Source: Marsupella aquatica (lineage: Eukaryota > Plantae > Marchantiophyta). Taken from it: 64,000 nt of DNA. Each line of letters begins with the position of its first letter. Positions within the stretch are counted from its first letter, which is position 1. Under the pieces are notes generated by a model, which saw nothing but the letters and a program-made list of their open reading frames with translations, was not told where the DNA came from and ran no database searches. Positions 1 through 35,098 of the stretch are shown here, piece by piece. Location of the stretch: assembly GCA_973895155.1 (NCBI GenBank), contig OZ316891.1, positions 22,711,884 to 22,775,883 on the forward strand, read 5' to 3'. The position numbers and the translations under genes are program-made.

Positions 1-1262
1 ACATTACTAATTTTAATTTATGAACTGACACTAATATAGTACACATTAAACATTATTGAATGTATTTAAACAAGAAGGCCATCAATAAACCAATAAGAAG
101 CCTTTTCTTTGTTCTTCCTTGATTGAGTATTTTGTTTGAGACACCATTTCCACCTGTTGAGGGCCTTTTGTATTTTAGCAATTTGAATTTTACCATTTAA
201 TTTGTTCTACTTTGCCGGCTTGAGTTCTACAACTTCTTATCTTAGGGGCCTCAATATAAGGGGTGTCCCATACCACACGCAAAGTTTTGGGGAAATGAAC
301 ACCTAAAACTTAGGTGAATAAAGTTTTTTTGAGTAATTGTTTTATCCCTAACTTAATGGAATATTTTTGGAATATTCTCAAGTTTGGTTTTAAAACACCC
401 GAATCATGTTTGTCACCAAAAATTGAAAAGTCTTTCACTAAACCCAATAAAAAAACCCTATACTTATTTGCGCATGATGGGTTGGAAGAAAAGAAGTGAG
501 GACCCCGGGCTTCTTACAGAGAGTGAGTTTCTTGAGCTCCTCTTTGCTTCACCTGCTAGTTCATCCTATTAATAGGATAATGGTTAGGGTTTCTAGCCTA
601 TAACCCTGTGATCAGAAAATAGCAACCCTGATTTAATTGTCGCTCCCTCATGGTGCAGGTCCCTGTCGGATCCGTGGGGGCTCACCCTGAAATGGGTTCC
701 CTAGAATGAATGTTGTCACTATTGGGGTGGGGAGAGACTATTAAGTGTTCTTCCTCATTTCCATACAAGACCAAAAAGGACTTGTAGACTTTTACAAACC
801 ACAGTAGTCCCGTAAGTTTATATTTATAAATGACTTGAAGATTTAATTTGTTGTTTGTTGTTGTCCCTCATTGCTAGAAACATCTTACTACTATACATAG
901 AATCAAATTACAGAGAGGGTGCCATGATGTCACCTTCCAAAAGTTAAGTAAGGCAATATATAGTGAGGAAGTCTCAAGGCTCGGAGTTTAGTTGGGAGTT
1001 TAATGGACCTTAACTCTGAAGTTATGGGTTAGATACATTCAAAGTTACGGACAAAAAGTTACGAATAACCAAATTCAGAGTCCATAACATTTGTCATATG
1101 CCATGACCATTAGTCATGAAAGAGGCTAGTGAAAAAAAACCTTTAGCAAAATCTTGTGAGAAAGTTATGACCATTCCTTTATAGCCAAAAGCCATAGTCC
1201 GTAACTTCGAAGCTTTGAGATGCCCCAGTCTTCACTAGAAGAATCCGAGGTGAACTGAGACC

Positions 1263-1590
1263 GCAATATATGACTCATTTTGGCTCATGTGACTTCATTG
1301 TGACTCAACGTGACTTGACCCACGCTGTGACCCTTGGAGTTGCAAAAGTTGAGACCAAAAAATGGAAGTCACTATTGATACTGGGCTTTGCAACTTGCTT
1401 GATACCCATTTGTGACTGATCTGTGACTTTATTGTGGAGTCTAGCCTTGTTTCGACGTGACTGCAATATGACTTCAGCGAGTCACATCGTAAGTCACATA
1501 CATGACTTACCCGCATTCAACAACGACTAGCGTGTGACTATTTAGTGTCACAGGAGAGACCAATGGAGACCCTGGCCCGCGTCACACAAC
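1263..1590. repeat. E1 subterminal GTGAC/GTCAC motif cluster (putative TnpA binding sites)
   Basis: Dense GTGACT/AGTCAC motifs in both orientations next to the TIR; AGTCAC/ATGAC motifs recur at ~19640-19815. Confidence 0.7.
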
Positions 1591-2087
1591 AGAACCATTT
1601 GGGACTCTATATACTCATGTTTATAACTAATAAGGTTCACATGCAAGTTATAACCATGACTAATGAACACAGAGGGACAGTTCATAAGAAGAGAGAGCAC
1701 TCGACATTACAATACATAGAAACCTGATGTTCTAACTTTAGAAATATAACACATTGAATACAAGAAATGAACATAGCATGAATGACATCCACATGAAACA
1801 AAGCATCATATAAGCAGATCCTACATAAAACATTCATAAGAATTAAACACAATCACAATCTTGCTAAAAAATGAAGATCATTTGAATTCCAATGGAATAG
1901 TTTACAATGTGATCAATGTAATTTAGACAAAACAGGAACTCATAATTGATGACTGTAGGATGAGATAACTGAAAGCACATGCATGATACTATGAATCTCC
2001 AAGAGGACATGATTCTTGTACTGCTTCTTGACATCTAAAATCTACATAACATGACTCACACTACAAACAAATAATGGCATGACATTG

Positions 2088-5000
2088 TTATGGATCCTCT
2101 ATGAACTTGCTTGGCCATAATACCAAAGAACCTGCAGCATCTCCAAGTGTCTTTTGAGGAGGATCATCATTTGTGTTTGGAATGGGAAGGACAGCTTTAG
2201 GTTTCACTAGTAATGTGACTAACACTACTGAATAACCTGGGGGAATCCTCTTGCCATGGAACGTTGTGGAACCAACCTGCACTCTGGCAAATCCTACTCG
2301 TGTTCCACTCTCATCAACAGCTAACAAGCCACTTTGTCCCTCAGCATTAGGTGCTTTCCCCACTTCCACCTTAGATCTTTCTGCCAGCACTGTTCTTGGA
2401 GGTTTGTATGAAACCTTTGACGTGGCTCTGCTCCCACCAGCAGACTTGCTTCGTGTGCGCATGCTTCCTCTCTTCACAGTAGTGAAGCTAGGCTCAGTAG
2501 GTTCCTCTGTTAGGACTGTCACAGTAGCAGGTTCATCACCTGGGAGTGTCATACCAACTAACTCTTTGGTTGGATTTATCTCAACAAGAGGCACACCTGT
2601 CATTGAGAATGATACATTCTGCAAATCATTTATCTCTGCAATGGAGTCAAGATCTACATAGCATGAATCTGGCTCAATGGTATCATTGTCATGCTTGCTG
2701 ATATCCTCATTTGCCCCAACATTGATATCATCCACTCCCTTGCCAATGTCATCCTCATCCAAACATGGTTGACTGCCCTCTGTCAAACAAGTTGCTTGTA
2801 CAGACTGCAACTTTGTTGCCTCTAAATTACAGCGAGTATTTGCCAGGTTCTCATACTTCTTCTCTGTAGCACCTGTCTTATTCTCTATGGACACAACAAC
2901 CACAATATATGTTACTGAAAATAACACATTCAACAAACAATGTCAATTCAAACTATACATTTAATAATCATATCCCACACAGTTGTAAAGGCCTTACCTT
3001 CAAGCCTACATGTCGTTGGCATGCCAGAAGAGTGCATCGACTTTGCCACCTCAAGTGGTGATGGTGGAACTCCTGCAGAATTGGAATCAATTTTATCTCT
3101 CACCGACACAACAGCTTCCATTAATGTCTTGAAGTTCACATGGAACAAGTCAGTCAATGAATTCAAACGTTCATTGATCTCTGGAAGACATGTTTCGACA
3201 GCCTTCAAACGACCACTTATCTCTGTAAGTGAAGATCCACCTCCCTACATGACACAGGGGTATAGGTTCAATCACTCCATATGAAATGTTGGGCAATATA
3301 TGCACAATCAATGTTATATACAGTGTACACCTGAAATTCAACGCAGGTCATTCAATTACCAATCAGAACTCATATAACTTACATGCTTGGAGGATTCAGA
3401 TGCACCCTCTTGAGCCCGGGTGTTCACAATTTCAGCCCTCAACTCTTCTTTTGAAGGGCTTTGCCCCAATTGGGCTTTCTGCACATGCATGGCAAACACA
3501 AGTTATCGATCAATATTCAGGGAACGTACACTAAAAAACAAAGTTTACATGTATGGGTTTACACTAAAAAATAGTACATAGTGTAGCATAAATTACATAG
3601 CTAGGCCATTCATTCTTACCAAACGTTTAGCTGTCGGTGCAGTGCCGGTCCTTCCTGTCAGATTAGGGTTCTGAACACTCAACCTGGCCTCGGTCATCTG
3701 TGAACTCTTCTTTTTTGAAGCATCTGTTACAAAATAAGCTACTAACCTTGCCCACACTTTATCATCACAACTGGCTGGTGGAGGCATATCTGGCTTCTCC
3801 CCACCTTCCTTCCAAGCCTTATGCATTCTCCACCTCTCTTGCTTGATAATTTTACCTGCTGTACTCTCTAGGCAACCTATGTCCACGCCATCATCACTGC
3901 CCACATAATTCCATTTGGCAGCAACATTTTCACATACAGTCTTCCAATCTTTTGGATGCTGTTTTTTAAAATTAATAACACTCACATCTAACCAACGCAA
4001 TACTTCAGCTTTCAAATCAGCATGCCATCGGTTCTTGCGAGGACACTCAGCATCCACCCATTGTCTCTCATTCAACTTTACATTCCCTTTCTTTGTCACC
4101 TCCCCTCGTGCACTGCTCTCGGTAGTACTGGGCGTTGTATTGGCCACCCCTTCATTCACCCTACCTGGGGTTCTGAAGCCACCTGGGAAAATACAATGCC
4201 ATTCATGCTTGAGAACTACATATAGCAGAATGGATGACGGCAACATTCAATGCTTCACTTCAAGAAAAATTCTTCAAACATACATACCTGTAGCTCTGCC
4301 TGTAGATGCCTGTGCAGGGACTGCACTCTGAAATTGTTGCGACCCTGGACCACCTGTCCAGCCTAGTACAGGGGCCGGATGATGTCACTTTCTAGGTATG
4401 TGTGTGCAAACATATGTACTGAAAACTAAGTACAAACTGTAGGAAAACAACTGAACATTCACTGACATACCTGTCCCCCTTCCGTGCTGCATCTGCATAG
4501 GGGCATTAGTGAATACTTGAGTCGATGGTTCGACTGTCCAACCTGCACACATACATTTTCTATCATTATACATGTGCAGAGTCCCCCCCACGTGAATGGA
4601 CTCCACATATAATGAGTTCTTCCATTGCTAACAAGATCAGACATTACCTGCTCCTCTTCCAGCGTTTGTAGGTACTGAATTTTGATATCCCTGCCAATTA
4701 CCTTCACCACCTTCCCAACCTTGTTCATTCCACGACCCACCACCATCCTCCCAACCTGGTTCAACCCATGTCTGTCCTTGTGGACATTGGAACTGATCAT
4801 TACTAGCATTTGCCCAATCAGGTTGGGCAGAATCTGCATGCAATGGCAGGTGGACAGAATTTCATGTTGTCTGAATCCAATACATCCCAAACAATGTCAA
4901 AAATTGATATGCAGTCTGAAATTCAGGAGTGCCATGCCTTCACAAAGAACTGGCATATAGATATATACTCACATCCCCACGGTTGAGGTGGACGTCCATA

Positions 5001-5878
5001 CCCACGAGATTGTGGGTTTGGACCTGCTCTGCCTCTACCACGGGCATAACCTAGAGCTTGCCCCCTGCCATAGTATTGGGCACCAGCCTGGGATCTACCA
5101 CTACTACCACCTCGCCAACCTTGATCAGAGGTCAGCCCCCCCTGCTGGTATGGTGCATGCACAGGCTTCGAAGGCAAAACAGAACTGGCAGGACGCTGCA
5201 TCACATCACCAACTACAATGTCAGGAACTAAGCAAGGTACATATGTGTAGTACTGAACATATGAAACCTCTAAACAAGAGTTTTTAACTCAAAACCTTGT
5301 TGGGAAAACTACTTACATGTTTCTTTTGGGGCTGCTCTGCAATGTATTCATCTTCATAACCCCCATCCTCATCCATTTCCTCTGGAAAATACTCATCATC
5401 TGCATCTTCTTGTCTAGTGTCTGCACCCACCTGTGCAGCATCAATGTCATCTCCACATTCTGCCATTGTAGGTACGACCTTCTTGCTCAACCTGTCACTC
5501 CGACGCACAGGCCCAGAGATAGTGCTGGTCACCCTTCTTGCGTACTCCTTTTGTTTCTTTGAAAATGTTGTGGCTCTGCGACATTCCAATATGAGAATAC
5601 AGTCACAATTTCAGTGCCACATTGAACTATTCATGTCACACAAACTCAGCGGAGGGGTGTAGTTGAGAATCGTTCCCTTACAATTCAGCCACATCCTTTT
5701 CCAGATCCAGTTCTGCGATTTTGGCTTTCACGTATGCTCGTTGTTCCATAGCTTTCCTTTCATACTCACACATCTCTGTGTCACTCTGTTCCATCCTACT
5801 GGACCACAAAAACATGTCATCTATGGTCACCCCGTATAACACAATGCAACCACAATCACCAGGCATCCATCCATACAT
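2088..5878 (-). CDS. E1 multi-exon TnpA/Tnp1-like protein
   Basis: Exons within ORFs 5678-5878, 5284-5589, 4923-5204, 4637-4843, 3593-4246, 2948-3208 and 2088-2936, plus mini-exons 4471-4542 and 4288-4362, bounded by GT-AG sites. Ptta/Transposase_24-like segment (W..V...V..KW...IIKQER..P.....W..LV.YF...NPN.TG) and a C-terminal Tnp1/En/Spm-like domain (FHG..IP.GY..V.V.....A.LP.P.......L.DA.G..V.W). Start and exact exon set uncertain. Confidence 0.75.
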
Positions 5879-5950
5879 CTGTGTTGCTTCAGAATTACTT
5901 TATTACACATCCTTCCCCTCACTAATGTCTATGCAAACAATTCACATTAC

Positions 5951-8900
5951 TCATGGCACAGGCACACTGTTGGCATCTGCATCTCTGAATTCGCCTCCTT
6001 CAGCAAATGCATCTACCCTTGTCACAGGAATGAAGTCCCCGCTATCATGAACTACAGGCACTTGGTCTGAACGCCGACGATCAAAGGCACTATGAGAGTG
6101 TAAATGAAACTCAAGGTTTGATCCTTCCATCCGGCGTTGCCTGGCCTGTTTATGACACACTACACGCCAACCTGGGGAGTCTTCCACATCCAGGAAGAAA
6201 GCTTGCTCCACCTGACTAGGAAACACAAATGGCTCAGACCATTTGGGCAATTTCCCTCTGAAATTGGCCAGCAAGAAACCGTCGTTGTCTCTCTTCATGG
6301 TAGCCCTGTTACCAAGCCAATCCTGCCGCACCCATGAACCTTTCATAAGAATCACAGGACTGGACACCGCCCCATAGTCCAGAGCCCATATGTCAACTAA
6401 TTCTCCCACATATCCCATCTCCATCCAGGCCCTGTCGTGATTGTGGCTCTGTTGCTCAAATATAGTGATGAGCCCGCAGTCATTCGTCACCCTGTAGGCA
6501 CTGTCACCATCCTTCACTCGGAAGTGATTCCCATATGCTCTCATCCGTTTGTAAGTCTTCACTTTCAGGCTAGGGGCATTAGACAGTAGGTAAACATCTG
6601 CATCCATGTCTGGGTGGGTCTCGTGATGCTCTCTAATTGCCACTCTGATCCACTCCATGAAACCTGGAAAAGTTGTTCCTGCAGTGGGATGGGCCGCCTT
6701 CAATGACTCATACTCCCTGAACGAACAACCACACAGCATTAGCTTGGGTAAACATGAACAGGCTGAAGGAGAAAACCACACGAACACAACATTTAAGCTC
6801 ATGAACTGGATTATAGCACATGTATGCACTCACTGTATCCAGGGTTCCATCACCACAGTGTTGTGCAATACAAAGTCATGTGCCAAGTCTCTCATAGATA
6901 TGGTCAGGTTCTTTGTGGTTGCAGCCCCTTCCAGTACTTCACCTACCACCCCTTCCTCCTCATCAGAATTCCACACCCTGGTCTTCACATGCTCATATTG
7001 TGCTATGTATTCGGTCAGAAATCCCAGAGTCTCATCCTTGATGTAACCTTTAGCCATGCTTGCTTCAGGTTTGTAATATGTTCTCACGTGACCTTTGAGT
7101 AGCTTCATGTACCGTTCCAAAGGGTACAACCAACGAGCACTCACAGGCCCAAATTGGTGTAGCTCTTCCACAACATGGACAAGTAGGTGGGTCATGACAT
7201 CAAAAAATGCGGGAGGAAAATAAATCTCCAGGTCACACAGCACCTGAGCGACATCTTCTGTCAGTTGTGGGAAGTGTGTTTCATCCCAAACCTTCACACA
7301 AATACGACGAAACACATCACTGAGTCGCATGATCACAGTACGAACAGGCTTCTGCAACAGGCCCCTCAGGCATAAAGGCAACACCTGTTGCATCAACATA
7401 TGGTAGTCATGGCTTTTCATACTACCAAGCTTTCTAGTCATGATATGCTTCTTGAAAGCACTGCCATAGTTTGAAGGAACCTTCAAAGAACTCAACCTCT
7501 GCACAAATAGTTCCCACTCTGTGTCTGTCAGAACATAGGGCGCTTGGTACTTCAAGAGCACATCAGCTCTGTGGGCATGTGGCCTCAACCAAAGATGGGG
7601 TTTCATTCCCCTCTGTTCAAGATCCAATCTCACTGAACCAGTGTCTTTCTCTCCACACAAGAATCTGAGTAGACTCTCACAAATATTATTTTCAATGTGC
7701 ATAACATCAATGTTATGTTTGCTTGGCTCAAACTCCTGCATCGTTGCAATGCAAAAGCGTCAGGAAATGCCTCAAGTTTAGTCTCTCTCTTCGAAATGAA
7801 TGCACATGCTCTGAACCAAAACATGTATCCCAATTAGCATCAACTCCAAGAGGCTTACCCTCCAGTACTTGAGCTCCAAGTCCAATATGCTCAGTCTTTT
7901 TACACCATATCGCTTTATTGGATCACTCACTCCATCTTCCCTGCCCCCTCGTTTGATATAGTCATCTCTCAGTGCTCCCCACTGCCTGATCTCCTCTTTG
8001 GTCACTCGTGCCGGGGGTCCACGTTGCTCAATCTCATTGCCAAAGTGTGCAATCAGTGCCTGTCTTTCTCTGTAAGGGTGATCTGTCTTCAGAAAACGAC
8101 GATGGCCCATGTATATCACTTTCTGCAGGGCTCTGGAGTACTCACTGGTGACATTGCGCCCACAGATAGTACAAGCACAATATCCTTTTGTTGTTTGGCC
8201 TGATATCATCCCATGGGCTGGGTAGTCAGCTATAGTCAGAATGACAATGGCTCTAAGGATGAATGGGTTTAACCTCCCAAGCCTCTGTAGGACATCATAT
8301 GTGAGAACTCCTTCCTCCCAAAGCTTTCTCAATTCCTCCACTAGGGGAGCCAGAAACACATCTATGTTGGCAGATACAGCACTGTCTGGCCCTGGTATCA
8401 GTAGGACCATCAGAACAAAAAATCGCTTTGTAGTCATCCAAGGAGGAAGGTTATAATTCAAAATAGTTACAGGCCAGCATGAAAATTTGTTGTTCTTGTC
8501 TCCAAATGGGTTTACCCCATCCAATGACAGCCCAAGTCTGACATTCCTTGGCTCAGCAGCAAATTCGGGATACATCTCATCTATGAGTTTCCATTGCCTT
8601 GAATCTGCAGCATGTCGTTGTAGCCCATCATCACTTTTCTTGTCAGTTGCCCAAGTCATCATCTCCGAGATGGCACGGCTTCTGAACATCCGCTGAAGTC
8701 TGGGAATGAGTGGAAAATGACGAAGTACCTTGGCGGGAACCATAGACTTTCCTGAGTTCCGATACCTGTGCTTCCCACACTTAGGGCATGTCAACGATTC
8801 TTTATACTCCTTTATGAAAAGAACATGCCCATCAGGACAGGCATGGATCGAATCATAGTTCAATCCAAGATTAGATATGCATCTTTTTGCCTCGTACATG

Positions 8901-9682
8901 TTCTTGGGCAAAATATTACCATCTGGTAGCACAGTTGTTCGCAAGAATGCCAACAACTCAAAAACCAAAACGTTGGGGACATTGTGGTTGCCGCAAATGT
9001 TCAGGAACATGATGACAAATCCCAGTTTAGAACATTTGCTACCGGGGTACAAAGACTTCCTGCCTTCCTGTATTTGCAGGGGAGAGCCAAACATCCCATC
9101 ATGCCCAGGGGTTTCCTGCCCTATCTCAAACTCATCAAGAGGCTCTTCGACAGGGGGCACACTTGCATCTGCAGCCGTATCCTCTTCATTGTCCAGCCCA
9201 TCATGAAATGCATCCAAGTCTTGGAAGATGTCTCTCACCATCTCTTCCACATGAATTCCTTTGTCACGTGGTGCTGCCTGAGCACCATCCCGTTGGAGAG
9301 CTGACAACCCACAGAGACCAGCTACAACATTTTCAAATGCACCAGGCAGAACCTCACTTGCCCGTCTTGCAGCATTGGCAGCATCAAATTCTAACCTCCA
9401 CTCCTCGTCGGAAGAATCTTCCTCTGCAGGATCATTCCAAACTCGATGTCGTGGATCTCTTCCATGAACCGCGATATGCCGCCAAACCTCATTCAGACCC
9501 CTGGTACGGGATCCTTGGCAGATTGCACAAGGACATCTCATCCTACTGGCTCCTGAAAGTCTGGTTCGTAACCTTTCACGCTGCCAAAGCTTATTATCAT
9601 GGCGTGATATCCTTGTGGGATGATGCAAAGGCAGTGCCTGTGCCCTGGGCTGGGTCTGGGGAGGGTGGTGACCAGGGTGCAT
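5951..9682 (-). CDS. E1 CACTA transposase (Tnp2/TnpD type), 3 exons
   Basis: N-terminal CPCxxC..H Zn motif; Transposase_21 core (RNVRLGLSLDGVNPF, WPVTILNYNLPPW, ADYPA); intron ~7858-7736; DUF4218-like exon (DVMHIENN, MKSHDYH, FPPAFFDVMTHLLVH, LYPLERYMKLLK); intron ~6833-6717; DUF4216-like exon (EPFVFPSQVEQAFF). No internal stops seen. Confidence 0.93.
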
Positions 9683-10115
9683 TGTAACAGGCTGGGAGCT
9701 CTGCAGTCATGGACAGCAGTGAACAAGGATGCCTAATGGTGGTATTTGTGTTCCATATATCCCTGACTGTATCTGCCAAAAGAGTTAACATAACGTGTAC
9801 TAAATTCTCACAAACCCTAAACCACCCCAAAAGAAAAAAACAGGTTCGCAAGTAGTGTACCTATTGTCAAGTGAATGACACAAAATTTCTAAATGTTGGA
9901 GGGTGTCACCACCTCCTCCGCTGTCCTCAAATGTACCGCCTCTGCATGTACGTTTACAGTGACACCCCCAGGCAGCAGGAAACAACAATCCGCCAACAGT
10001 AAAATAAGCCCAACTGCCACCAACCATAACAAGGTACATTAGTTCAAAGATCACATTTATTTCAATGATCTGATTTATACAAAAAAACTTGTGTCCAAAC
10101 TGATGCTACTACTCC

Positions 10116-10994
10116 TCACTCTGATTCAGAATCGCTAATGACCCATTCCTCACTTGTTGTCTCATAGTCCTCTCTGTAAGGATCCTGACCCTTCCGTGGC
10201 CAGGCCTCAAAAAGATCATAGTCCATTGGGTTTTGACGCTTCCCAGCTGCTACTGATTCCACAAGCCAAGCATATGAAACCACAAACACATTATGGGACA
10301 TGACATAAAAGCGAATGTCTCCCTTCCCAAACTTGCGGCAGGCTTTGGGATATGACTTAGTAATGACATGAGTGGTGTCCTCTGTTATATTCTCCTCCAC
10401 TGTCCCACCTAGGTCAAGCACTGTGGACTTGTACACTTTGCACTTAACCTCTCCAATTCCCGCCTCCACAAATACCATGCTCAGCCCTTTCAGAATGGGG
10501 GTTGGTTGCTTCGTCTCCTCAGCCAACATACTCTTCAGCCTTGTAGAGCTCTGTCCTTTGTTGAGTACAGGTCCATATTGGAGATCAGCAAGCCGTGCCT
10601 TTGCTTCCCAGACTTCTTGTTCAGCCCAAGCTGATGCAGTAGCTTCTTCATCCTCCCACAACTCATATTGCTCAGTATCCTGTACAATCTTATGTGCTAT
10701 GGAATCTGTGATCCAAGAGGCCTCAACTACTTTTAGGCCTTGCTTAGTAATTGCAGAATTCATGTAGGACCATGACCACTTCTTTATCACTGATAGCCAT
10801 GTCCCTGCAACAACATGTGTAGTCTCTGGAGTGATGTCCTGAACTACAGTGCCATGGAGCTCAGAGAATCGTTTCTGTACAGTTGGCCAATGCACTTTGG
10901 TCAACCCATGCTGGCCATGGACCAAAATCGCTCTGACCCCTGTAAACACTGCTGGGTGGTCACACTTTCTACGTTTACCAGGCTCCATGTACAC
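10116..10994 (-). CDS. Tandem BRCT-domain protein (DNA polymerase lambda-like BRCT), transposon cargo
   Basis: 292-aa intronless ORF with two BRCT repeats (FTGVRAIL..LHGTV...ITPETTHVV..VVEASWITDSI; LKGLSMVF..LGGTVEENITEDTTHVI..VVSYAWLVESV). Confidence 0.85.
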   Translation of the reverse strand: MYMEPGKRRKCDHPAVFTGVRAILVHGQHGLTKVHWPTVQKRFSELHGTVVQDITPETTHVVAGTWLSVIKKWSWSYMNSAITKQGLKVVEASWITDSIAHKIVQDTEQYELWEDEEATASAWAEQEVWEAKARLADLQYGPVLNKGQSSTRLKSMLAEETKQPTPILKGLSMVFVEAGIGEVKCKVYKSTVLDLGGTVEENITEDTTHVITKSYPKACRKFGKGDIRFYVMSHNVFVVSYAWLVESVAAGKRQNPMDYDLFEAWPRKGQDPYREDYETTSEEWVISDSESE

Positions 10995-11580
10995 ACACCC
11001 TACGTGATGACAGTGAATTTTGGAAGAATGGGTTCACCTGACAATACAAGGACAACAAAATTCCTGCTTTTTGAGTTGATCTGGCCCACTGGTGCTCAGG
11101 TCCGATTTTGATAGGTACAAGGGATATGTGAACAATACGTACTAGGCACCTGCACGGATGCAGGACATTGTTTGAATATATACTACAAAATCCATATCCG
11201 TGGTGAAATGAAGTGCAACCAACTTGTCATGGCACATACATATTTTGTTGTAAAGGAGGATACATTCAATGACAAACTTATAGGGCAATTTGATTAATTG
11301 CATGCCTGATAATTTATACGCTTACAACTTAGAAGTCTTGTTTTAATTTAGCAGTGTGATGAAAGTGTTTATGAAAATGACCACTCAGCCTAAATACTTC
11401 CAAGAAGGCTTGTAAGGATAAGTTTGTATAGGCATGTACCCAGCCACTGACGCCAGAGCACAAGATAAGTGCTGCCTATATAAACTCGCCTACCCAACTC
11501 CTTTTCAAAATTGGAATCTCTGCAATCTCAAAAAATAGTACATCCACATCAGGTGCACTGTGCATGTACAATGTTCAGCT

Positions 11581-12261
11581 TCACAGCCAAGATATGTGAT
11601 CTCTCACAGGAGTGCGCGAGGTAGGATCAATGGCATGGCGATGACAATAAAATATCCATCGATCAACACCATGTGCAGAGTGATCATAGATTTCTCTGTC
11701 ACAAGCATAACCCTCTGCTTGATGATCTTTCAGGCAATGATAGTGCCACATAGTGGGACACCTAGCACAGTGGACTATGTCAGTCCAGTAGTCATCATCA
11801 TGCTCACCACATGCCTTGCACCTATGAAGTGGGCAAGCTGTGGCATGAGCAGGCAAACACTCAAAACAGAAAAATCTCACACAAAAACGGTCTGGACATT
11901 TCCTAACATTTGCTGCAGCATCAACAGAGCCCTCATAGGACCCCAACTTCCCACACTGTGCACACTTAGCCTGCTTCTCCAAACAATCAGTGCACATCCA
12001 GTCTCCCTGGTGTGTTGACGGGAGGCCCACCCCTGGACAGTTGTTTTCTGCAGCAAGGTCAGACTCCGGGTTGAGGTGGAAATGCCTCATGCAAGGGCCC
12101 TCACAAATGACCAGGCCCCCACCATCGTCACAAATGGCACAACAATGAGCTGCCTTCTGGAAAATCTGACTTGCAGAGAAGTTAGTAGCATCTGCCCCAA
12201 GTACACCTGTGTTTCTCACCTCTGTCACACGCTTTTTGGCTTGAATTTTAGGCCGTGCCAT
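11581..12261 (-). CDS. Stand-alone EDM2-type composite PHD-finger protein (E1 cargo)
   Basis: 226-aa intact ORF: CAICDDGG.L..CEGPC.R.FH, WxCxxC, CxxC..LG, CPLHxCxxC, CxRCP..WH..CL, YC..H.ID....TPVRDHI, as in the PHD region of Arabidopsis EDM2 (recalled). Confidence 0.88.
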   Translation of the reverse strand: MARPKIQAKKRVTEVRNTGVLGADATNFSASQIFQKAAHCCAICDDGGGLVICEGPCMRHFHLNPESDLAAENNCPGVGLPSTHQGDWMCTDCLEKQAKCAQCGKLGSYEGSVDAAANVRKCPDRFCVRFFCFECLPAHATACPLHRCKACGEHDDDYWTDIVHCARCPTMWHYHCLKDHQAEGYACDREIYDHSAHGVDRWIFYCHRHAIDPTSRTPVRDHISWL

Positions 12262-12272
12262 GCCTGCGCATG

Positions 12273-12416
12273 AGATAGACTCTACAATTTAGCAGACTGC
12301 ACAGAAAGTAATATATATTTAGCATTTAAGGTACAAAGGCATTTAGATAGACTCTACAATTTAGCAGACTGCACAGAAAGTAAAATATATTTAGCATTTA
12401 AGGTACAAAGGCATTT
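12273..12416. repeat. 72-bp tandem duplication just upstream of the PHD ORF
   Basis: AGATAGACTCTACAATTT...GGCATTT twice (12273-12344, 12345-12416), one mismatch. Confidence 0.95.
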
Positions 12417-13031
12417 GCTACTGCAATGAATTGGAATGGCCACACAAGGATGCAGAGCACACATACTTTTGGTATGTTGAGCCCACACACAAAACTGATC
12501 CCCTAATACAATTTCTCCACCAACACCTCAATTTTAATTGTGGCTATGATTCACCAAAGGAGATCTGCAACAACATTTCATGCATTTGAATCACATACAA
12601 TAGTCGTGACATGTAAAACAGGCATTCTTCGAAGAGGATTGGTATGAAGCAGTGTCATAAGGGTTGAAATTTATACATCCTAAATAGGTTATGATAGTGG
12701 CTGAGACAAATAAGTGAGGCATAAATCATTTTGCATATTATCACATGGCCCATTAATTCATTCAACGTTGCAATGTTCACCAGGTTAAAGCAGTCATGAA
12801 AGCAGTCTTTCAATAGAGACTTTTATGCGAGTTTGCTAGCCTCTTAAATTAGGATATTTTGCTTAGTACAGGCATAATAGGATATAAGTTATGTACTGTT
12901 GACCCTAAACCCTGGACCCAAAATTGCTCATACATCAAAATTTTAAGTAAATATCCTCTGTGTTGAAGTCAGAGTGTTAAGCTATAGGTCAATGGTATCT
13001 GGTCTGTGCATGCGGTGTGACAAGTGGTCCT

Positions 13032-13481
13032 CTAGAGCATGTGATCCAAACATGTGTAGACACCAAAGTCACCGGTGGTGGGGTCTGGGAGGGCAGGACA
13101 AGTGACATCACCAGGCACACTGCAGGATGGCGAGTGGTTCCAGATGATACATTGTGCTCTGTGCAAAAATCGGCATCCAAGAGAACGGTCATCCAATTCT
13201 GGGCCAGAAGCCCTACAGGCAGGACAGTCATATTGGCAACTGTGTACACACCCTTGGCACCTAATTTGTGGCGGGTCATGTACAAGAGACACAAATACCA
13301 AGGATGTCGGGAAGGGTACTGAAGCAGGTAGAGGCCGGCTGTAGTTGTTCCTAGAAACAACAGGGTACTCAAAGTACCATGCAGACTGGGCTGGAAGGAT
13401 CCCAAGTCTGACATACTCAAGGCGCAACATCTCTGCCTTGCGTGCAAGTCGCACATGTTCAGCGTTGCGGGTCCTCACCAT
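13032..13481 (-). CDS. Cys/His-rich putative zinc-finger protein (PHD- or DC1-like), E1 cargo
   Basis: 149-aa ORF starting MVRTRN; CxxCxxxCxYxCxxC...CxFLHxxxC...YxCxxH pattern; same strand as other cargo, with a candidate splice acceptor upstream (~13611). Confidence 0.5.
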   Translation of the reverse strand: MVRTRNAEHVRLARKAEMLRLEYVRLGILPAQSAWYFEYPVVSRNNYSRPLPASVPFPTSLVFVSLVHDPPQIRCQGCVHSCQYDCPACRASGPELDDRSLGCRFLHRAQCIIWNHSPSCSVPGDVTCPALPDPTTGDFGVYTCLDHML

Positions 13482-14489
13482 AAGTGTTGCTTTCGTTGTG
13501 ATGTCCTCTGTTCACGTCCTTTGATGAGCAAGGTGAGCAGGAGGTCGACTTGCCTCGCCAACAGCAACCACCTAAACTAATCAGTTCCCACTCATTGTCT
13601 TGGTTCCAACTACAGGTCATAGTATACACATAGCATGAAACGTGCATAGTACATATTTGATTCTGAGTTTATGAGTTTCCTAAGACAAAGAGCTTGGTGA
13701 TAAACCCATATTCTCGATGGACATGTATATCAATCATATTAAACTCCTGTTTTTTCATCCAGAAAGACCGAAAGTCTCACCTTGCAGGTTGCAGCAGAGA
13801 GAAAATTCACTGGTTGTCGTGTTGTGCAAGTGAACCTCCACTGATGCCCCGGTGTAGCCCCTCAGATGCAGGTGACACTTACCAACTCCCAAGTTGCCTG
13901 GTCTAACAGAAAATGCTTATATCTTCAGAACTTTATAGAGCAAGTACATGATCACATACTTCTGGATCTATTCATATTTGGAACTCTTGCCAACTACAAC
14001 TCCCATTATGCACAAGCTCACATCAATAGAGAAAGATACAGAATGCATACTTACTATGGCTCTAAGCACCTTCACTACCTTGTTGAACCCAGTCCTGAAG
14101 TCTTTTCAGCGTGTTTGTTGTGCTGTCTCCTTTGGCACCCAACACCTTAGTCCTTGATGTAACAGAATGCGATTTTACAAGTTAGATGCTTTGGAACCTT
14201 CTATGGTCTTAGCTGAATTGATGTCATCGTAAGTGGTGAAAGACAAGGAAGACGAAAGCTGGTTGAAGAGCTGTGGACAACACACTAGCATGAAGTGCTT
14301 CAACCAATCCACTGCCAAACGGAACTCTTACACAGTCACATTCTTTTAGTAAACAAAAACTCAGTCAAACTTCAGAATCAAAGTACAGACTCTGAAGGAC
14401 CAAAGGAGGATGTTGTGAGTTTCTCTGTTGTTTAATGTGTTACCCTTCTAGTTTCGAAGTTAGCAAATGCTGAATAATGTGTCTACCAG

Positions 14490-14832
14490 ATCTTCAAAAA
14501 GAAGCCCACCACAATTAAGAACTTCGGTATCTGGGTCCACGTATCAGAGTCGTACAGGTTATCACAACATGTACAAGGAATATTGTGATACCACAAGAAA
14601 CGGAGCTGCAGAGCAGATGTATGATGAGATGGCTTCTTGTCATAGAGTTTGGTTCCCTTGCATCCAGATCATGAAGACTACGACAGTCCCTGTCTCTCTG
14701 TGCAAGCGAGAAAGTACCAAGCAGTTCCATGATTCAAAGATCAAGTTCCCCTTGACGTACTGCAAGATTCAACCTCCATTGCGAAAGCTAAAGAAGACTT
14801 ACAAGGCCACCAAGCCCAACACAATTGTTTGA
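14490..14832 (+). pseudogene. RPL18A: Captured 3' exon of 60S ribosomal protein L18a (eL20)
   Basis: After CAG acceptor: [16 protein letters not shown], +1 frameshift, then [60 protein letters not shown]...KLK.TYKA.KPN. Confidence 0.93.
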
Positions 14833-16022
14833 GTAGTGCGGGTGCAGGTTCCCAATTTTGAGACAATTTGGCTCATTTTATGTCCCGAGGGAATCCTGGA
14901 GTTTATGTATTGAGTTTCTAGGTGAAGATGCTTAATATAAGGAAATTCAATTATCACTTCGTTCCCAACTTCTATTAATTGAAAATACACAAGCTGGAAG
15001 CAAGAAGACAAGCCACAATCTAGCATCTTAGCCAAACACAATCGTCCCGACAAAGCAAAACTCAGTTGGACAGAAGTCACTCGGATCCACAAAAAATTGA
15101 AGATTCACCTCCAAGCCGGAGGCTGATCACTTCAGTACAGCAGCTTCTAGACTGAACAAACTCTACTCAGCCCCACAGAAACACAAATGTTAAGGCTCCA
15201 AGTCAGAGCTCACAAACAGAAACTCAGATAAATAACATTCAAAATCTGTCCAGGTTTGTGCAAAGTGTACATATTCATTCTTCTGGAATGAACACGCAAT
15301 GCATACATCACCTAGACACAGTCATTATAAATCATTGGGCGATTGGGGACCACTAAGCAGGTGTGTTCCTATTTCGAGGCTACAGGAAAGGATAGAGTGA
15401 CACCAAACTCAAGAGTACACCAAAAGAAAAACAGCAAGAACCAAAGTCAATCATGTGTGGATAAACTGCACATGGGAAGTTCCCCTGAAGAAGCATCAGT
15501 TGCTAACATTGTCACCCGAACCACACCTAGTTTATGACCTCAATGTCTTCAGCCTCAATACCTAATCCTCAGCCCCCTGGTGCTTCCGTGTTTGTTCTGA
15601 AAATTTCTGTGATGAAATAATTATTCAATACATTCAATAGGAGTTCAGACAATCTGAAGAGGACTTTGGACTTGAATGGGGGACAGCGTGGCCATATAGT
15701 TATCCTTGTGGCCTTCAGCTACGTGTCTCACGCTGAATTTCACTTTCCAGTTTCGAGAGTTGTGAAGGTCTAGTTTTAGTAACTTCCTCCTGACTCGACT
15801 TGGGAGCATTCTCTGTATTATTTTGCTAGCTTGTAGTTAGCTTTGACTCCTTTCAGCTTAGTTGACGACCCTCTTGAGATATTAACAATTAGAACAAACA
15901 CAAGTTGTCAAGACAGATTCCACCGGAGCAAAAAGTCCAAAACCAGGTGAATGAAAACCTAAGGAGAGTCCATAAGAACGAAAGTAGGAAGGCAGGCGCA
16001 CGGGCCACCGAGAAAAGTAAAG

Positions 16023-16183
16023 GATGCATGTCATTAGTGGGGAGGGATCTTAGCAAAAGCAGGGGAAAGCAAGGGAACTTGCGGCTAAAATCAGCTGAAA
16101 GATGCATGTGATTAGTGGGAGGGATCTTAGCAAAAACAGGGGAAAGCAAGGGAACTTGCGGCTAAAATCAGCTGAAAGATGCA
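16023..16183. repeat. ~78-bp tandem duplication
   Basis: GATGCATG..GGGATCTTAGCAAAA.CAGGGGAAAGCAAGGGAACTTGCGGCTAAAATCAGCTGAAA twice. Confidence 0.9.
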
Positions 16184-17487
16184 CAGTTCCTAGAAATGTA
16201 GTGAACCTTAAGGTCGTCTGTTCACCCCCCCACCCCACCGCCGGGCACAAGGCATGTTCTGATACAGGGAGGAGCAAAACAATCATGTCAAGCAAGAAGT
16301 GTGGAGAGACCAATCTGTAAGCAAAAATAGGGGAGAACATACATACATCAGCAGCAACAGGAAACAAGAAAGATGAGTTTGGAAAGCATCTTAGGGTCGG
16401 GGACATCACTGCAACACCGGGACTTAGGATATGACTTGTTCTTAATCTGTTGATAGCATCCGGTAGGCCGGCAACCCATGGCAAAAGGGCAGAGCAGCAA
16501 TAACAGTTTGAATCTGACGGATGAAGCTCCAGGCAAATGAGCTCCAGGCGATTGGGTGCATGATTGAGCAGGCGATTGTAACAGCAGGCACCAGGTAATT
16601 TAAAGGAAGCAACATTCGGCAATGGACCTAGGCAGCTCACAAATTTTGCTTAGCAGCGATGTCACCTAGACCCTAAACACGCAATGCATACATCACCTAG
16701 ACAACTATACTTGCAGTCACGAGGTGAGTCCGCGTCGATAGGGGATTGCAGCCTTACCTGTGCCGATGTAGCACCAAGCCGCCCTAACTGAAGCTGCATA
16801 GCAATCCGCAGCAATCGCTCAATGCAAAACAAGTCCCCGGTTGGCCTTGCAGCCCGATCATCCACCTTCAACCCTGCCACCAAGCAATGAGCTCTCCGCT
16901 GTTGCTCACCCTAAACCTTCAACACTCCCGCAAAGTTGTGTCTGCCCGCAAGATTGGGTGCGTGATTGATTCGGCAATTGTAACAACAGGCAACCGCAAT
17001 CGGTCGCAGGTCATGGATACACAAGCTCCAATGTGCTCCCTTTAGCTGAAACAATACCAGTTGTCGCTCACCACCAACACTTTCAGCAACAACACATATT
17101 TGTTGTAGTCCGCACCTTAAACCTTAGCCATGGGGTGGTCAATCAAGTTCCGCAATGCCTAAAACACCGACCACCTGACTTACATGAAATGTGCACACAG
17201 CTAAGCTCACCTGCAGCTCACGCCAACCACATTGAGACAACTGAAGTGAATACTGCCGTAGCTGAACTCGACTCCTCGCGACTCTTTCGCGCCTTCGTAG
17301 ACTGCCTTACTCAAGTTGTCATTTTTGTATATTGAATCCCTAAACAACCCAATAAGTAGACAATTCATGCACGTAGCTCCTTCAATGGTTGACAGTGAAT
17401 ATATTCAGAGTCAAAAGCAAAGCTTGGACATGTGACTATGCTAGACGTTTACACGGGGGAGGATCTAGTTCACTTATGAGACCGCAT

Positions 17488-17577
17488 CTCAAACAGCTCA
17501 ACTCTCTGTAACCGTAGCTCAAAGAGCTCAACTCTCAGTGACCCCAGCTCAAACAGGTCAACTCTCAGTGCCCGCAC
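17488..17577. repeat. 30-bp tandem repeat, 3 copies
   Basis: CTCAAA.AG.TCAACTCTC.GT... repeated at 30-bp spacing. Confidence 0.8.
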
Positions 17578-18879
17578 TTGAAACTCAATTTGCTGAAACT
17601 CAGAAGGTCAAAGTGACTATTGCATGAGTAAGAACACCCTTTACCTCACTGGTGCCGAAAGCTCTCACAGGGGCTGTCACATTTCTCAGAAGTACTCTGT
17701 CACTAAACAAGAAACATGTGAAACTTGACTCCAGCTCCGGCTCCAAGTAAACAAGCTGGACTGCCGCGACAAGTTCCTGGTTCCTAATCCTAGTTTGCAG
17801 CTGAACGTTGAAGCAACTCTCATAAAGCTTTTTATCCATTGGCAATCACTACCTTATCATTTCAGCCTTATTATCTCATTGTGCAAACCTGGATGTCACG
17901 GGGCATCTTGGGAGGTGAATGCAGCTAAGCAAAAGCTACAACATCTATTGCAAGCCGGTTCATGCAGATGGCAAGTTAAAGTCAAGCTTGAAATACACTT
18001 ACAGCCGGCCGAATGTCAATAGCGCTCACTGTAAAAGGTTGAGATGTTGTCAATGACGGTAGCGCATTTTCTTATCCCTTCCACCTCACCAGTTGTAGCC
18101 CACACTCATGTTTAGAAAAATTTGCGTTGGTGAAACTTGGCCGGAACCTGAGTCAAAAATAGCTTCACAGCACAAAGAAGTCAACCAAACTTGCAGCCGC
18201 GAGGTCACATAGCAAAGATAGGGGATTGCAGCCTTACATGGGCTGATGCAGCACCAAGCCGCTCAAACTGAAGCTGCGTAGTAATCCGTAGCAGTATGTG
18301 AAGCTGAGCAACAATCCCCCGCTATTGCAATGTGATGGCAACTCAATCTTCAACTCACTTCCAACCCAGCTCCACTTGAAAGCCTCCTAGTCGGACTGCA
18401 ATGTACATCCAAAGGCGATCAATGCAATGTCTCCAGGCCTGGAGTCCCACTTTGCAAGAACAGTCCAAATGCACACCAAACCGCAATGAGAAGCTCCTGG
18501 TTCTCGATCCCAGGTTGCAGCTGAACGTCAAATTGACTCTCCCAGCTTGAAGGAACAAGTGCCTCCTACAGTGCCTTGCGCAGTGGCAAACGCCTCCTGC
18601 AGTGCCTCCCACAGTGCCTATGATCAATGCTAAACACATACAATGGCTGAATGTTGCCTACGACTCACATTCTGTTTTGTCTATGCAACACCCTAAACTC
18701 GCTCTTCTTGCCTCCTACTACTCCCATTGCAGTCGGGATTGCAATTTGTCAATGCAGCTTCAGCCTTAGTGATCGACAAACTGCCCCCTTTTTTCCCTCG
18801 CAAAGAATGCGCGATCAGCTCCTCGTCCGCAAATCCAAAGGAATCCAAGGCGCAATGGGAGTTGGCGTGAAGGAATCCA

Positions 18880-18965
18880 TTAAACCCTAAACCTGGTTTA
18901 ATGTGCCCATATTTGTTTTCAACCGTCAGATCATCCTTTGATTAAGTTTACGACCGTCAGATCCT
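18880..18965 (-). promoter_or_regulatory. Putative E1 promoter region (telobox plus two ACCGTCAGATC motifs)
   Basis: AAACCCTAAAC at ~18882 and ACCGTCAGATC at ~18922 and ~18953, beside a CpG-retaining patch about 0.9 kb inside the right end. Confidence 0.35.
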
Positions 18966-21390
18966 TGCTTGATTAATTAAGGTAAGGACTGTCACAAGTT
19001 CTTATGCTCATTCCATGAGCATAGTGTGTGGGGTGCCATTATCAGATATGTCTAATTATAACATGTAGACATGCCAAGTACATGGAGGTTCCAGCTGCAT
19101 TCCCAGTTCTTGGTGATTTTGAACCTTTAATTAAAGGAATCTAGATGGAACAATGTGTGGAGGGGGTACATGACGGTATGTATGCATGGCATGGCGTGCA
19201 ATAAGTAAAAATAACCTGCCCTTGCATATGTGAGAGTTAGAGATAACCAAGGAGATAACTTCAAATGTACCCATTTAGACACAAAAATGAGTCCAATTAA
19301 TATTACATGCATGCCATTGTGGGACCCTAGCTAGTTGGGATTATTTTGTTATGTTGTAACACTTGTAAACTTGTGGCATACATATGTTGTAATTCAGTCT
19401 ACTCTAATGTAGAGTATATATTTGAGATCTGTTAGCATTGACATTGACCAAGGACCTTTACTTACCTTGTAGAGTTGCGTACTCACACAATATCCCGAGG
19501 GCATCTCCTTTAGTCCCATTGACAACTAAGAAAATTAGGATATATCCTAAATGGTATGTGTTGGGCGGGGTCAAATGTGGTTAGATTGTGGTGTTAAACC
19601 CTAAGGCTCTCTTACATATATAACGCTCTATTGTAGAGGGAGTCACTTATACAACTTCATTCTTGTTGGCTGAACTTAGTTATAGTTGCAACTTCCCCAA
19701 TAGTTATAGAAATGACTTCCCAAGAATTCTCCAAAACTCAGTCCACAACTTGTAACTATAATGACACCCAAAACCTAGGAGTCACAAATTTTGCAAGGTC
19801 TCATTAGAGTCACTTAAGGCAGGGTCTCAGAATGGGCCGGTTTCTTCTAGTGCTTACATGCTTGAGGTGTAACTTGATTTGTAGCTCCCTAACCAAAAAG
19901 AAGTTCTTGTCATTTTGCAACCTGGCTATTGAGGGCTATGCTTCCAGGTTTTTGGGCCCACACTTCCTTTCTGTTATACATTTACACTTAGGTTACGACT
20001 GCAGCCATAGTCGAGCTAACTTTAGTTGCAAACTTAATAAGGTTAGCTGTGTTGCATACTACATACCCAAGTAGTTGTCACACCATTCTAGGTAGTGCTA
20101 GAGTGTATCGTACTATCTAGATCTGTATGTTTGGTATGTGTGCTATATGAGCCAATAAGGTTCCGTTAGGTTTGTGTGAGAGGGTAGTTCTCTCTTGTGA
20201 GGCATTCAAAGGTTATCTTTCAATGTTGAGCCTTGGAGAGAGAGGAGCTTGAGTGTGGCTACGGTGGTTGTGAGCTCCGCTTGTGTAACGTGGATTCCTT
20301 GAGTAGTGCAAGGTGCGTTGGCTTGACATACGTGTATGATCGGATCGGTGCGGTATCGATGGGGTATTGTTGACCGGGATCGTTATGCCGATTGTATTAA
20401 GATTACATTGAAAGATCAGATGCGAACTCTGTTGTGCGGACTGTGCAAATAGAAGTTTGTTTCGTGGCAATTGAGTTGGCGACGGCTCGTGGAAATTGTT
20501 TGAAGCTGTTGCGTGCATGGATCGTATTGAATAGATCATTAGTATTCAATAACTAGCGGGTCAGCAAGCCCCGATACATGAGGAGAACTTGCAAGTGTTA
20601 CAATTTTGAGTGCCAGATTTGGTGCATAATGACAAGTGAGAGGTCACCCATCCCAAAGCTATTCCTCCCCCACACACTTAACTATGTGGTTCTTAAGTGC
20701 TCTTGTGTGCACACACTCCTTTCCACTTTGATGTTAATAGAATGAGCACTTAGGCATTTTATACACATTTTGGTTTGTTTAGATTGCCATTTTGGGCCAA
20801 ATTATAAGCTCTTTCAGGGTTTTTGAGGTTTTTGAATCCACCTAAATGCATGGATTGAACCAATTGTGCATGGATCCTTAGCTACGACATTGAACATTGA
20901 GAGGCCTATTATGAAGGCCCCACATTGAACATTATGAACATTGTTTGATTGATGTATGATCACTATTGATGTGGAGAGTTCTTGTGGATCTCTTCTTGTT
21001 GATTGCATCCTCTCCACATATGCTTCTTGTTTATGCGCCATGTTAGTTTGGCATGGGCGCTTGATTCTATAGGAGTGATCCGGGTTTGCAACCGGACATT
21101 CTAGTTGTGCTACGTATTTCTCTCCTGGTGATGTTAGAGTGATGCCCAACACACCATGGTGAGTGTTTGTGTTGCTGACAGGGACAGATTGCCCTTAGGG
21201 TTAGCATATAGATTAGATTAGGTTGGTCACCACGGATTCTTCTGATGTTGCTGGGTTACCCGATGGACGACGGACTGGTTTCACTCAGAGTGGGGCGCAT
21301 TTTTGGCCAGCGGCATTGGTGGCAGTCAGCAATGCAGCTTCAGACAGTGATTCCGACAAGGACTCAATTACCAGTTCTCCTCGTCATCAG

Positions 21391-23600: not shown

Positions 23601-24649
23601 CACTAGTAGAAAACAATATATTTTATGACGGAAACAATGACTATTAATCAGGTCTTTTTAACAAAACAATGATGCAATCATTCTCGTCTTTCCAGATGCG
23701 TCACAACGGACATTTTGGTCACGGTCATTTTGGACAAATGACACTAAAAACATGTGGTCATTTCATACTATCCTAAATGACGGTTTTTATGATATGGTCA
23801 TAAATGTTGAACGGTCCTAAATGATGACACAAATCACCATCGACGGTCAATTGCCGTTGACCGTCAACGGTCCCCATACCCAATCACACAACGACATGTG
23901 GCAGTCAAAAAACAAATAACATTGGTCATTTTGGACTTGTCCAAAATGATGTACATTATATAACAAATCAAATAGTGACACATGGTTCAAAGAGGATTCA
24001 CCATCAAATGGCAATATATTTGGGTCATTTTGGACGTGTCCAAAATGACTACGATATAAACAAGTCATATTAAGACACGTGGTTCAATTAGGAGGAGACA
24101 TAAAGATACACATTAGTCATTAATGACATGTCTTGAATGACATAAAGTGAGTCATAGTGGACTTGTTTATAATGACCATGAGAGCGGTCATTCTTTGAAT
24201 CATTTAGTCTATGTCTTTAATGACCAGAGTTGAGTCATATTGGTCACAAAGATAGTTGTGGATAATGACCATTACATCAGTCATTCTAGCCAGTCATTTA
24301 GGTGAAGTATTCAATGATTTGGAGAAATTCAAATTTAAGTGATCATGATAAATAAAACTTCATGTCATTCAAAAATCATACATTACAAAGCCATTCAATA
24401 GATTTGCTGAATGAAAACTTAAAGAAACATTCCATATATATCACAAATCCAATTGACATTCATACAAGATACCTTCATAAGTCTCACAGTAACTATTGAA
24501 CTCAATGCAAATTTATGAAACAAAATTACATTGACATCAATAATATTAGAGTGTCAATTGTTACAACCTGACATACCAATCACTCTGCATGTTTTAGAAA
24601 AATAGAGTTGATTCTATCATGTCTAGTGTTTCTTGACAGAGTGCTATTT

Positions 24650-27600: not shown

Positions 27601-27904
27601 CTGGAATATGAAAATAGAACATGAACCTGACAACTCCATATATCTACTGAATCAAATTAATTTGCAACAGACATTTTAACACACACATCAGCATGCAGTC
27701 TGGCCCCAGTCCTAGATCACGCATAATGCTGACATTATGCTCTATGTTCCGCTTTCGGGCCTCCTCATAAGCATTCACAGGATGTGACAATTCAACCCCT
27801 GCAATCTTCCTTTCACAGGCTGCATTCACCAACTGCACAAATGGGCAAAACATTAGTCTGATTTCATATATAGTCCATACATGTAGTCCATCTATGGACT
27901 TCAC
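24650..27904 (-). pseudogene. E2 multi-exon TnpA/Tnp1-like gene, degenerate
   Basis: Exons paralogous to E1 TnpA (NAYEEARKRNI; RRSSRLS.V..V.MAE; terminal exon VAEGEV...FH.....F.RV.V..V..DVALPF); frameshifts and stops around 26100-26600. Confidence 0.65.
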
Positions 27905-35096: not shown

Positions 35097-35098
35097 AT

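What the first reader, a model, noticed from the sequence alone, without database searches (positions are those of the whole stretch)
12232..12261. Histone H3 N-terminal tail mimic at the start of both PHD proteins
Seen: E1 starts M-ARPKIQAKK and E2 (39536-39565) starts M-ARNKQKAMN, against H3 M-ARTKQTARK. A1, R2, K4 and A7 match in both, Q5 in E2, and K9 in E1, while the following linkers are unrelated. Known: PHD fingers bind the free A1-R2-x-K4 terminus, and viral histone mimics exist (influenza NS1). Inference: the tail could auto-inhibit or polymerise the PHD, or act as a decoy substrate for H3K4/H3K9 writers and readers. The motif is short, so chance or an NLS role is possible.
Basis: partly seen in the sequence, partly recalled or inferred. 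Interest (0 to 1): 0.85.

Follow-up and report, generated by a model that had tools for sequence, protein, structure and literature searches.

The report
Transposon histone reader with H3-like tail
Two plant CACTA transposons in this window each carry a small histone-reader (PHD finger) gene whose predicted protein begins with a conserved look-alike of the histone H3 tail, which likely plugs the protein's own histone-binding groove and could help the transposon tune or distract the host's gene silencing.

Summary
E1 (11581-12261, minus) and E2 (38906-39565, minus) are 41% identical EDM2/NSD-type PHD cassettes. Each lies just upstream of the transposase in a different CACTA element. Among 18 related proteins (cassettes 38-85% identical), the start keeps A1 in 16, R2 in 17, K4 in 15 and A/S7 in 15, while the linker behind varies freely. 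Listed copy variants at R2, A7 and K9 are all synonymous. The EDM2- and NSD-like host proteins checked lack the tail. PHD1 is closest to AIRE PHD1 and keeps its A1 and R2 pockets but not its K4 acid. A four-member subgroup with two extra N-terminal residues has lost the loop glycine that binds the A1 amine. Best reading (0.4): the tail docks on its own PHD1 as a built-in competitor of H3. Main rival (0.25): a decoy for host readers or writers. Limits: T3, Q5 and T6 are not kept (K6 instead), K9 is only in 9 of 18, and the start codon, expression and binding are untested. Seven literature searches found no transposon-encoded PHD protein with its own H3 mimic.

The parts
12232..12261 (-). E1 N-terminal H3-like tail (Met plus mature residues 1-9)
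   Evidence: copy variants
12181..12231 (-). E1 variable linker (10-23 residues long across the family)
12142..12180 (-). Conserved pre-PHD segment (aromatic-S-x-x-E/Q-x-x-Q-x-S/A-P/A-H), absent from the EDM2/NSD proteins checked
11581..12141 (-). E1 EDM2/NSD-type PHD cassette with EDM2-like C-terminal extension
   Evidence: Pfam PF23011/PF22908/PF23004 below cut-off; NSD2/NSD3/AIRE in PDB; EDM2-like P0017
12264..12266 (-). Splice-acceptor-like CAG ending 2 nt before the E1 ATG (inferred leader intron)
   Evidence: not confirmed by RNA
39536..39565 (-). E2 N-terminal H3-like tail
38906..39535 (-). E2 linker, pre-PHD segment and PHD cassette
   Evidence: PF22908 and PF23004 above cut-off; 41% identity to E1
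39570..39572 (-). Splice-acceptor-like TAG ending 4 nt before the E2 ATG (different phase from E1)
1233..19852 (-). CACTA element A carrying E1: terminal inverted repeats (12 of 13 nt) and CTT/CTT target-site duplication
5951..9682 (-). Tnp2 transposase region of element A (PF02992, PF13960, PF13952 in three ORFs)
3593..4246 (-). TnpA-like ORF of element A (PF03004, below cut-off)
10116..10988 (-). Tandem-BRCT cargo ORF between E1 and Tnp2 (element A only)
23601..42106 (-). CACTA element B carrying E2 (left end 23601; right end 42106 with TAT/CAT flanks, or 61349 with TAT/TAT), collinear with element A and interrupted by a Copia-like element

Best explanation
These CACTA transposons carry a stand-alone PHD reader, likely captured from an EDM2-like host gene, whose predicted N-terminal A-R-x-K-x-K-A tail likely folds back into the H3-binding groove of its own first PHD finger (or that of a neighbouring copy), where it would compete with histone H3. 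Shown: the transposon context of E1 and E2, the EDM2/NSD-type cassette, conservation of the tail, and the kept A1/R2 pocket residues. The result would be a gated reader that engages only some chromatin states, for example at the element's own copies during transposition or escape from silencing.
For: Tail conserved against a free linker: mean pairwise identity 0.77 at K4, 0.49 at position 6, 0.51 at position 7, against 0.06-0.11 at positions 10-19 (17 sequences). E1, E2 and L001 use different codons for the same A, R, K, A. Listed variants in relatives of E1 are synonymous at R2, A7, K9 and mostly non-synonymous beside them (Fisher p 0.045-0.06). The best PDB match of E1 PHD1 is AIRE PHD1 (E 7.5e-4). 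AIRE binds R2 with Asp312, the A1 amine with Gly333/Pro331 carbonyls, and the A1/T3 methyls with Leu308/Trp335 (PMC2685098, passages). The equivalents: D/E in 18 of 18, L/I in 18 of 18, and a Gly 2-3 residues before the Trp in 10 of the 11 M-AR members that could be scored. That Gly is absent in 4 of 4 M-P-x-AR members, as expected if tail and pocket adapt to each other; DPPA3 shows that this loop shifts to admit a non-terminal VRT (bioRxiv 2022.06.14.496052, passages). K6 in place of H3 T6 (12 against 0 of 18) fits a private partner better than host H3 readers. The linker is never shorter than 10 residues. Precedent for intramolecular mimicry: BAZ2B (PMC5663869, abstract).
Against: The K4me0-binding Asp297 of AIRE is His in 16 and Gln in 2 of 18, and Asn295 is Ser/Ala, so no canonical pocket for the conserved K4 is seen. 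The extension/Gly-loss link is one evolutionary event (clade support 94/92, only 58/88). L001 lacks the Gly with a plain M-AR start, and P0007 has an extension with a Gly four residues before the Trp. A1 and R2 were the anchor for the tail alignment, so their counts are partly circular. In 5 of 18 (P0003, P0008, P0011, P0012, P0014) the database start is further upstream and I took the internal Met. P0002, P0003 and P0006 lack K4 or the whole motif yet keep an intact cassette. Transposon context is shown only for E1 and E2.
Confidence: 0.4

Rival explanations
1. The tail acts in trans as a decoy or recruitment tag for host H3 readers and writers (H3K4 methyltransferases and demethylases, VIM/UHRF1-like PHDs), while the cassette anchors the protein on chromatin, as PAF15 does with its N-terminal VRTK.
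For: A1, R2 and K4 are the most conserved tail positions. PAF15 VRTK and H3 ARTK bind the same UHRF1 PHD through the free amine. The cassette lacks the K4 acid, so K4 may be read elsewhere. P0014 starts with exact ARTK.
Against: T3 1, Q5 1 and T6 0 of 18; K6 in 12; position 8 never R and K9 in only 9 of 18. 5 of 18 have an extension that would block host PHDs needing a free A1.
Confidence: 0.25
2. The tail is a basic N-terminal arm for nuclear import or DNA/nucleosome contact, and resembles H3 only because both are short basic tails.
For: K-x-K-x-K periodicity with K6 conserved; extensions tolerated in 5 of 18. A small nuclear protein needs targeting, and EDM2 has putative NLSs outside the PHD region (PMC3632883, passages).
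Against: K[KR]x[KR] occurs before the PHD in only 4 of 18 and not in E1 or E2. Conserved small residues at positions 1 and 7 and a fixed N-terminal position are not expected of an NLS (general knowledge).
Confidence: 0.17
3. The ATG is not the true start: the ORF is the last coding exon of a longer spliced gene, so the motif is internal.
For: Acceptor-like YAG sites lie 2 and 4 nt upstream of the ATGs. An ORF at 13032-13481 lies upstream of E1 on the same strand.
Against: The two acceptors are in different phases relative to the ORF. A Met sits 0 or 2 residues before the motif in 17 of 18. Upstream in-frame translations of relatives are unrelated to each other. The upstream ORF has no counterpart near E2. 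No change at the ATG is among the 14 listed variants.
Confidence: 0.1
4. The likeness is chance in a neutrally drifting N-terminus.
For: The motif is short; the members share one ancestor; 3 of 18 have lost K4 or the motif.
Against: The motif persists across cassettes as far apart as 38% identity while adjacent linker positions fall to 0.06-0.11 identity, with synonymous codon turnover.
Confidence: 0.03

Closest known systems
EDM2 (plant PHD reader of the ASI1-AIPP1-EDM2 complex) and NSD-family PHD cassettes
   Same: Same PHD-PHD-variant cassette. The profile scores EDM2-like P0016/P0017 at 82/81 bits against 39-51 for three NSD proteins, and P0017 shares the C-terminal extension. EDM2 binds H3K9me2 (PMC9910501, passages).
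   Different: Stand-alone 213-245 aa protein inside a transposon, without EDM2's RFD domain or long C-terminus. The acidic stretch before PHD1 in P0017 is replaced by a basic H3-like tail and a new pre-PHD segment. Only two grass EDM2-like proteins were compared.
PAF15 and DPPA3/STELLA H3-tail mimics binding the UHRF1 PHD
   Same: A short ART/VRT-like motif that fits the H3 groove of a PHD, N-terminal (PAF15) or internal with a loop shift (DPPA3) (bioRxiv 2022.06.14.496052, passages).
   Different: Those are host proteins acting in trans; here mimic and PHD are in one transposon protein, and binding is untested.
BAZ2B histone-mimicking linker
   Same: A lysine-rich segment competes intramolecularly with H3 for the PHD (PMC5663869, abstract).
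   Different: An internal, electrostatic mimic in a host protein, against a position-fixed N-terminal A-R-x-K motif.
Viral histone mimics (e.g. influenza NS1)
   Same: A parasite-encoded short motif resembling H3 (PMC11738798, search listing only; the NS1 detail is recalled).
   Different: Encoded by a DNA transposon and fused to its own reader domain.
Transposon-encoded chromatin effectors (VANC of VANDAL; TET/JBP of fungal DNA transposons)
   Same: Accessory gene beside a transposase with a likely role against or around silencing (PMC10398659, PMC12730594, search listings only).
   Different: Unrelated domains; a histone reader rather than a DNA-binding or DNA-modifying protein; anti-silencing activity not tested here.

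Membership tests
CACTA (En/Spm) transposon cargo | CACTA terminal inverted repeats with 3-bp target-site duplication | tested here: met
   Element A 1233-19852, CTT/CTT. Element B left end 23601; right end ambiguous (42106 or 61349).
CACTA (En/Spm) transposon cargo | Tnp2 transposase and TnpA-like genes within the element | tested here: met
   PF02992 E 2e-70, PF13960, weak PF13952 and PF03004; collinear in element B
EDM2/NSD-type PHD cassette | PHD1-PHD2-variant PHD array with conserved Cys/His | tested here: met
EDM2 protein (full) | RFD domain and long C-terminal region around the cassette | tested here: not met
   E1 and E2 are 226 and 219 aa with no RFD hit; P0017 has it
AIRE-type H3K4me0 reader PHD | R2-binding acid and A1 pocket (Asp312, Leu308, Gly333, Trp335) | tested here: met
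   E54, L50, G86, W88 in E1; D/E in 18 of 18
AIRE-type H3K4me0 reader PHD | K4me0-binding Asp297 (with Asn295) | tested here: not met
   His in 16 and Gln in 2 of 18; Ser/Ala at 295
N-terminal H3-tail mimic | Conserved A/V1-R2-x-K4 motif | tested here: met
   A-R-x-K in 14 of 18
N-terminal H3-tail mimic | Free N-terminal amine at residue 1 | tested here: inconclusive
   Met directly before AR in 12 of 18, two extra residues in 5; true start not confirmed
N-terminal H3-tail mimic | Binds or is modified by an H3 reader or writer | not testable with these tools
   Needs biochemistry
H3K9-type (ARKS) mimic | R8-K9-S10 context (recalled as the K9 writers' motif) | tested here: not met
   R8 in 0, S10 in 0 and K9 in 9 of 18 (tails listed)
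Classical monopartite NLS | K-K/R-x-K/R (pattern recalled) | tested here: not met
   Absent in E1 and E2; present in 4 of 18

The most novel reading that the evidence does not exclude
A lineage of plant CACTA transposons has built its own chromatin switch: a captured EDM2-type reader gated by a self-encoded fake H3 tail whose K4 is written or erased by host (or transposon-borne SET) enzymes, so the element senses the cell's chromatin state, chains up head-to-tail on its targets, and counters silencing.
Probability: 0.15. Interest if true: 0.9.

Novelty: new variant of a known kind. Interest (0 to 1): 0.68.

Why it matters
Histone mimicry is known from viruses and a few host proteins, and transposon anti-silencing proteins are known from other families. 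A transposon-borne reader with its own conserved H3-like tail did not turn up in seven full-text searches. If it works as inferred, it adds histone mimicry to the transposon-host conflict. It also gives a small (about 220 aa) natural model of the EDM2/NSD PHD cassette with a built-in ligand, and natural variants in which tail and pocket differ together.

Tried and rejected
No whole genome is held for the window, so copies could not be counted. No RNA holder was listed; this says nothing on expression. Contigs of four runs of unrecorded kind laid on 9500-15500 gave no joint with minus-strand intron ends among the 15 of 23 joints shown. AlphaFold2 on full E1 (7 sequences) left residues 1-47 under pLDDT 50. 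On E1 residues 2-105 without Met (19 sequences), only residues 9-25 were under 50 and the first ten averaged 53, with no strand in the tail: no verdict on docking. Foldseek and VIA on these models returned PHD/PZP folds with low scores and did not place the tail. The complex predictor was not available, so there is no verdict on tail-cassette binding. The profile search of cluster representatives was also not available, so the family sample stays at 18. A search for longer relatives gave 4 proteins among 2667 candidates, one EDM2-like and three NSD, and no fused transposon form; this is weak evidence. Viral contigs: 0 of 11 pattern hits confirmed. Metagenome contigs: 1 of 60 (L001, a broken copy on a 1.5-kb contig). 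The upstream ORF 13032-13481 gave no Pfam or Atlas hit. An Arabidopsis TE-product atlas has no occurrence of 'PHD' or 'histone' in its main text (PMC13547354, term search only, supplements not read). The EDM2 peptide-binding paper PMC4203584 was not held (title seen only in a reference list). Rejected: the tail as an inherited piece of EDM2 (no A-R-x-K before the cassette in P0016-P0019; P0020 not scored).

Full report
Observation. The two peptides are at the stated places on the minus strand, at the first ATG of ORFs 11581-12261 (E1, 226 aa) and 38906-39565 (E2, 219 aa). Of 3144 Met codons in the six frames, only these 2 begin M-A-R-x-K-x-x-A, against 0.015 expected. E1 and E2 are homologues (41% identity), so this is one ancestral motif kept twice.

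Context. E1 lies in a CACTA element with inverted ends at 1233 and 19852 and a CTT/CTT target duplication. Its gene order on the minus strand is: unknown ORF, E1, tandem BRCT, Tnp2, TnpA-like. E2 lies directly upstream of Tnp2 in a second, collinear but diverged element with its left end at 23601 and its right end at 42106 or 61349. The host is a plant, to judge by an L18a pseudogene; the lineage was not determined. Run X1 had 5619 contigs on 9500-15500 at mixed identities, which fits a multi-copy family but gives no copy number.

The domain. Both proteins are EDM2/NSD-type PHD cassettes. A profile of the family scores EDM2-like proteins (81-82 bits) above NSD proteins (39-51), and the EDM2-like P0017 shares the C-terminal extension. 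In a cassette-only tree, 15 family members group apart from 2 EDM2-like and 2 NSD rows, with moderate support 86/88 and long outgroup branches. Capture from an EDM2-like gene is therefore likely but rests on two grass proteins. In P0017 the stretch before PHD1 is acidic, and none of P0016-P0019 has A-R-x-K before the cassette, so the tail looks like an addition of this family.

Conservation of the tail. Three searches gave 16 relatives of the stand-alone type: P0001-P0015 and L001. With E1 and E2 that makes 18. I left out P0016 as host EDM2-like and P0021 as a near-copy of P0011. Transposon context is not shown for the 16. Counts of 18: A1 16, R2 17, K4 15, A7 12 (A/S 15), K9 9, T3 1, Q5 1, T6 0, K6 12; A-R-x-K-x-x-A/S 14. 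Twelve start M-AR, five have two extra residues, and one has no motif. In five the database start is further upstream and I used the internal Met; those extensions are unrelated to each other. Positions 1-2 were the anchor and are partly circular; positions 4, 6 and 7 are not, and show pairwise identity 0.77, 0.49, 0.51 against 0.06-0.11 at positions 10-19, for cassettes 38-85% identical. Shuffling each pre-PHD segment predicts 0.03 A-R-x-K starts among 17, against 14 seen (the sequences are related, so this is not a p-value). Among the 14 variant rows listed for 12181-12290 in four runs, those at R2, A7 and K9 are synonymous, none falls in the ATG, A1 or K4, and neighbouring codons carry 6-7 non-synonymous and 2 synonymous changes. 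Three rows with equal depths were counted as one change. Fisher p is 0.045-0.06: supportive but weak.

Is it the N-terminus? In-frame stops lie 9 and 4 codons upstream, and acceptor-like YAG sites end 2 and 4 nt before the ATGs. The different phases, and a Met 0 or 2 residues before the motif in 17 of 18, favour a non-coding leader intron. This is inference; no transcript was available.

The likely partner. The best PDB match of E1 PHD1 is AIRE PHD1. Mapping the contacts described in PMC2685098 (passages): the R2 acid is D/E in 18 of 18, the Leu is L/I in 18 of 18, and the loop Gly before the Trp is kept in 10 of 11 scorable M-AR members, but the K4me0 Asp is His or Gln throughout. The four M-P-x-AR members all lack the Gly. 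They form one group (support 94/92, 58/88), so this is a single event, and L001 and P0007 do not fit it neatly. DPPA3 shows that this loop can move to accept a non-terminal motif (bioRxiv 2022.06.14.496052, passages), and BAZ2B shows intramolecular competition with H3 (PMC5663869, abstract). The conserved K4 has no canonical pocket. It may contact the family-specific pre-PHD segment (aromatic in 18 of 18, Gln in 18 of 18) or a host protein; this is unexplained.

Verdict. The tail is real, under selection and H3-like at exactly the positions that PHD fingers read. I commit to docking on the protein's own PHD1 as a gate (0.4), ahead of a decoy for host factors (0.25), a basic import/DNA arm (0.17), an internal exon motif (0.1) and chance (0.03). 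Seven full-text searches of open-access papers found no report of such a transposon protein; subscription papers and supplements were not covered.

Noticed in passing
window 13032-13481 (-): 149-aa Cys/His-rich ORF upstream of E1 in element A that starts M-V-R-T-R, like the PAF15 VRTK mimic. No Pfam or Atlas hit and no counterpart near E2.
   Followed up: partly
window 10116-10988 (-): Intact 290-aa tandem-BRCT cargo gene between E1 and Tnp2: a second reader-type domain in the same element.
   Followed up: partly
window 45530-46345 (-): SET-domain ORF (PF00856) among the Tnp2 pieces of a third CACTA element; tblastx matches to the start of element A's Tnp2 lie on its far side at 46497-46938. 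CACTA elements here repeatedly carry chromatin domains.
   Followed up: partly
window 14467-14832 (+): Degenerate plant ribosomal protein L18a copy inside element A, a captured host gene fragment.
   Followed up: partly
window 29004-35519: Copia-like retrotransposon with 99% identical direct repeats starting at 29004 and 35095, inserted in element B's transposase region; likely recent.
   Followed up: no
window about 12275-12417: Tandem duplication of about 72 bp just upstream of E1 that repeats the T-rich, acceptor-like region (read).
   Followed up: no
window 42106 and 61349: Two candidate right ends pair with the left end at 23601 (TAT/CAT against TAT/TAT flanks); the stop codon of the third element's DUF4216-like ORF lies 2 nt from 42106. 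The nesting is unresolved.
   Followed up: partly
window 55385-60478: Degenerate tandem array with a period of about 570-580 bp inside the outer CACTA span.
   Followed up: no
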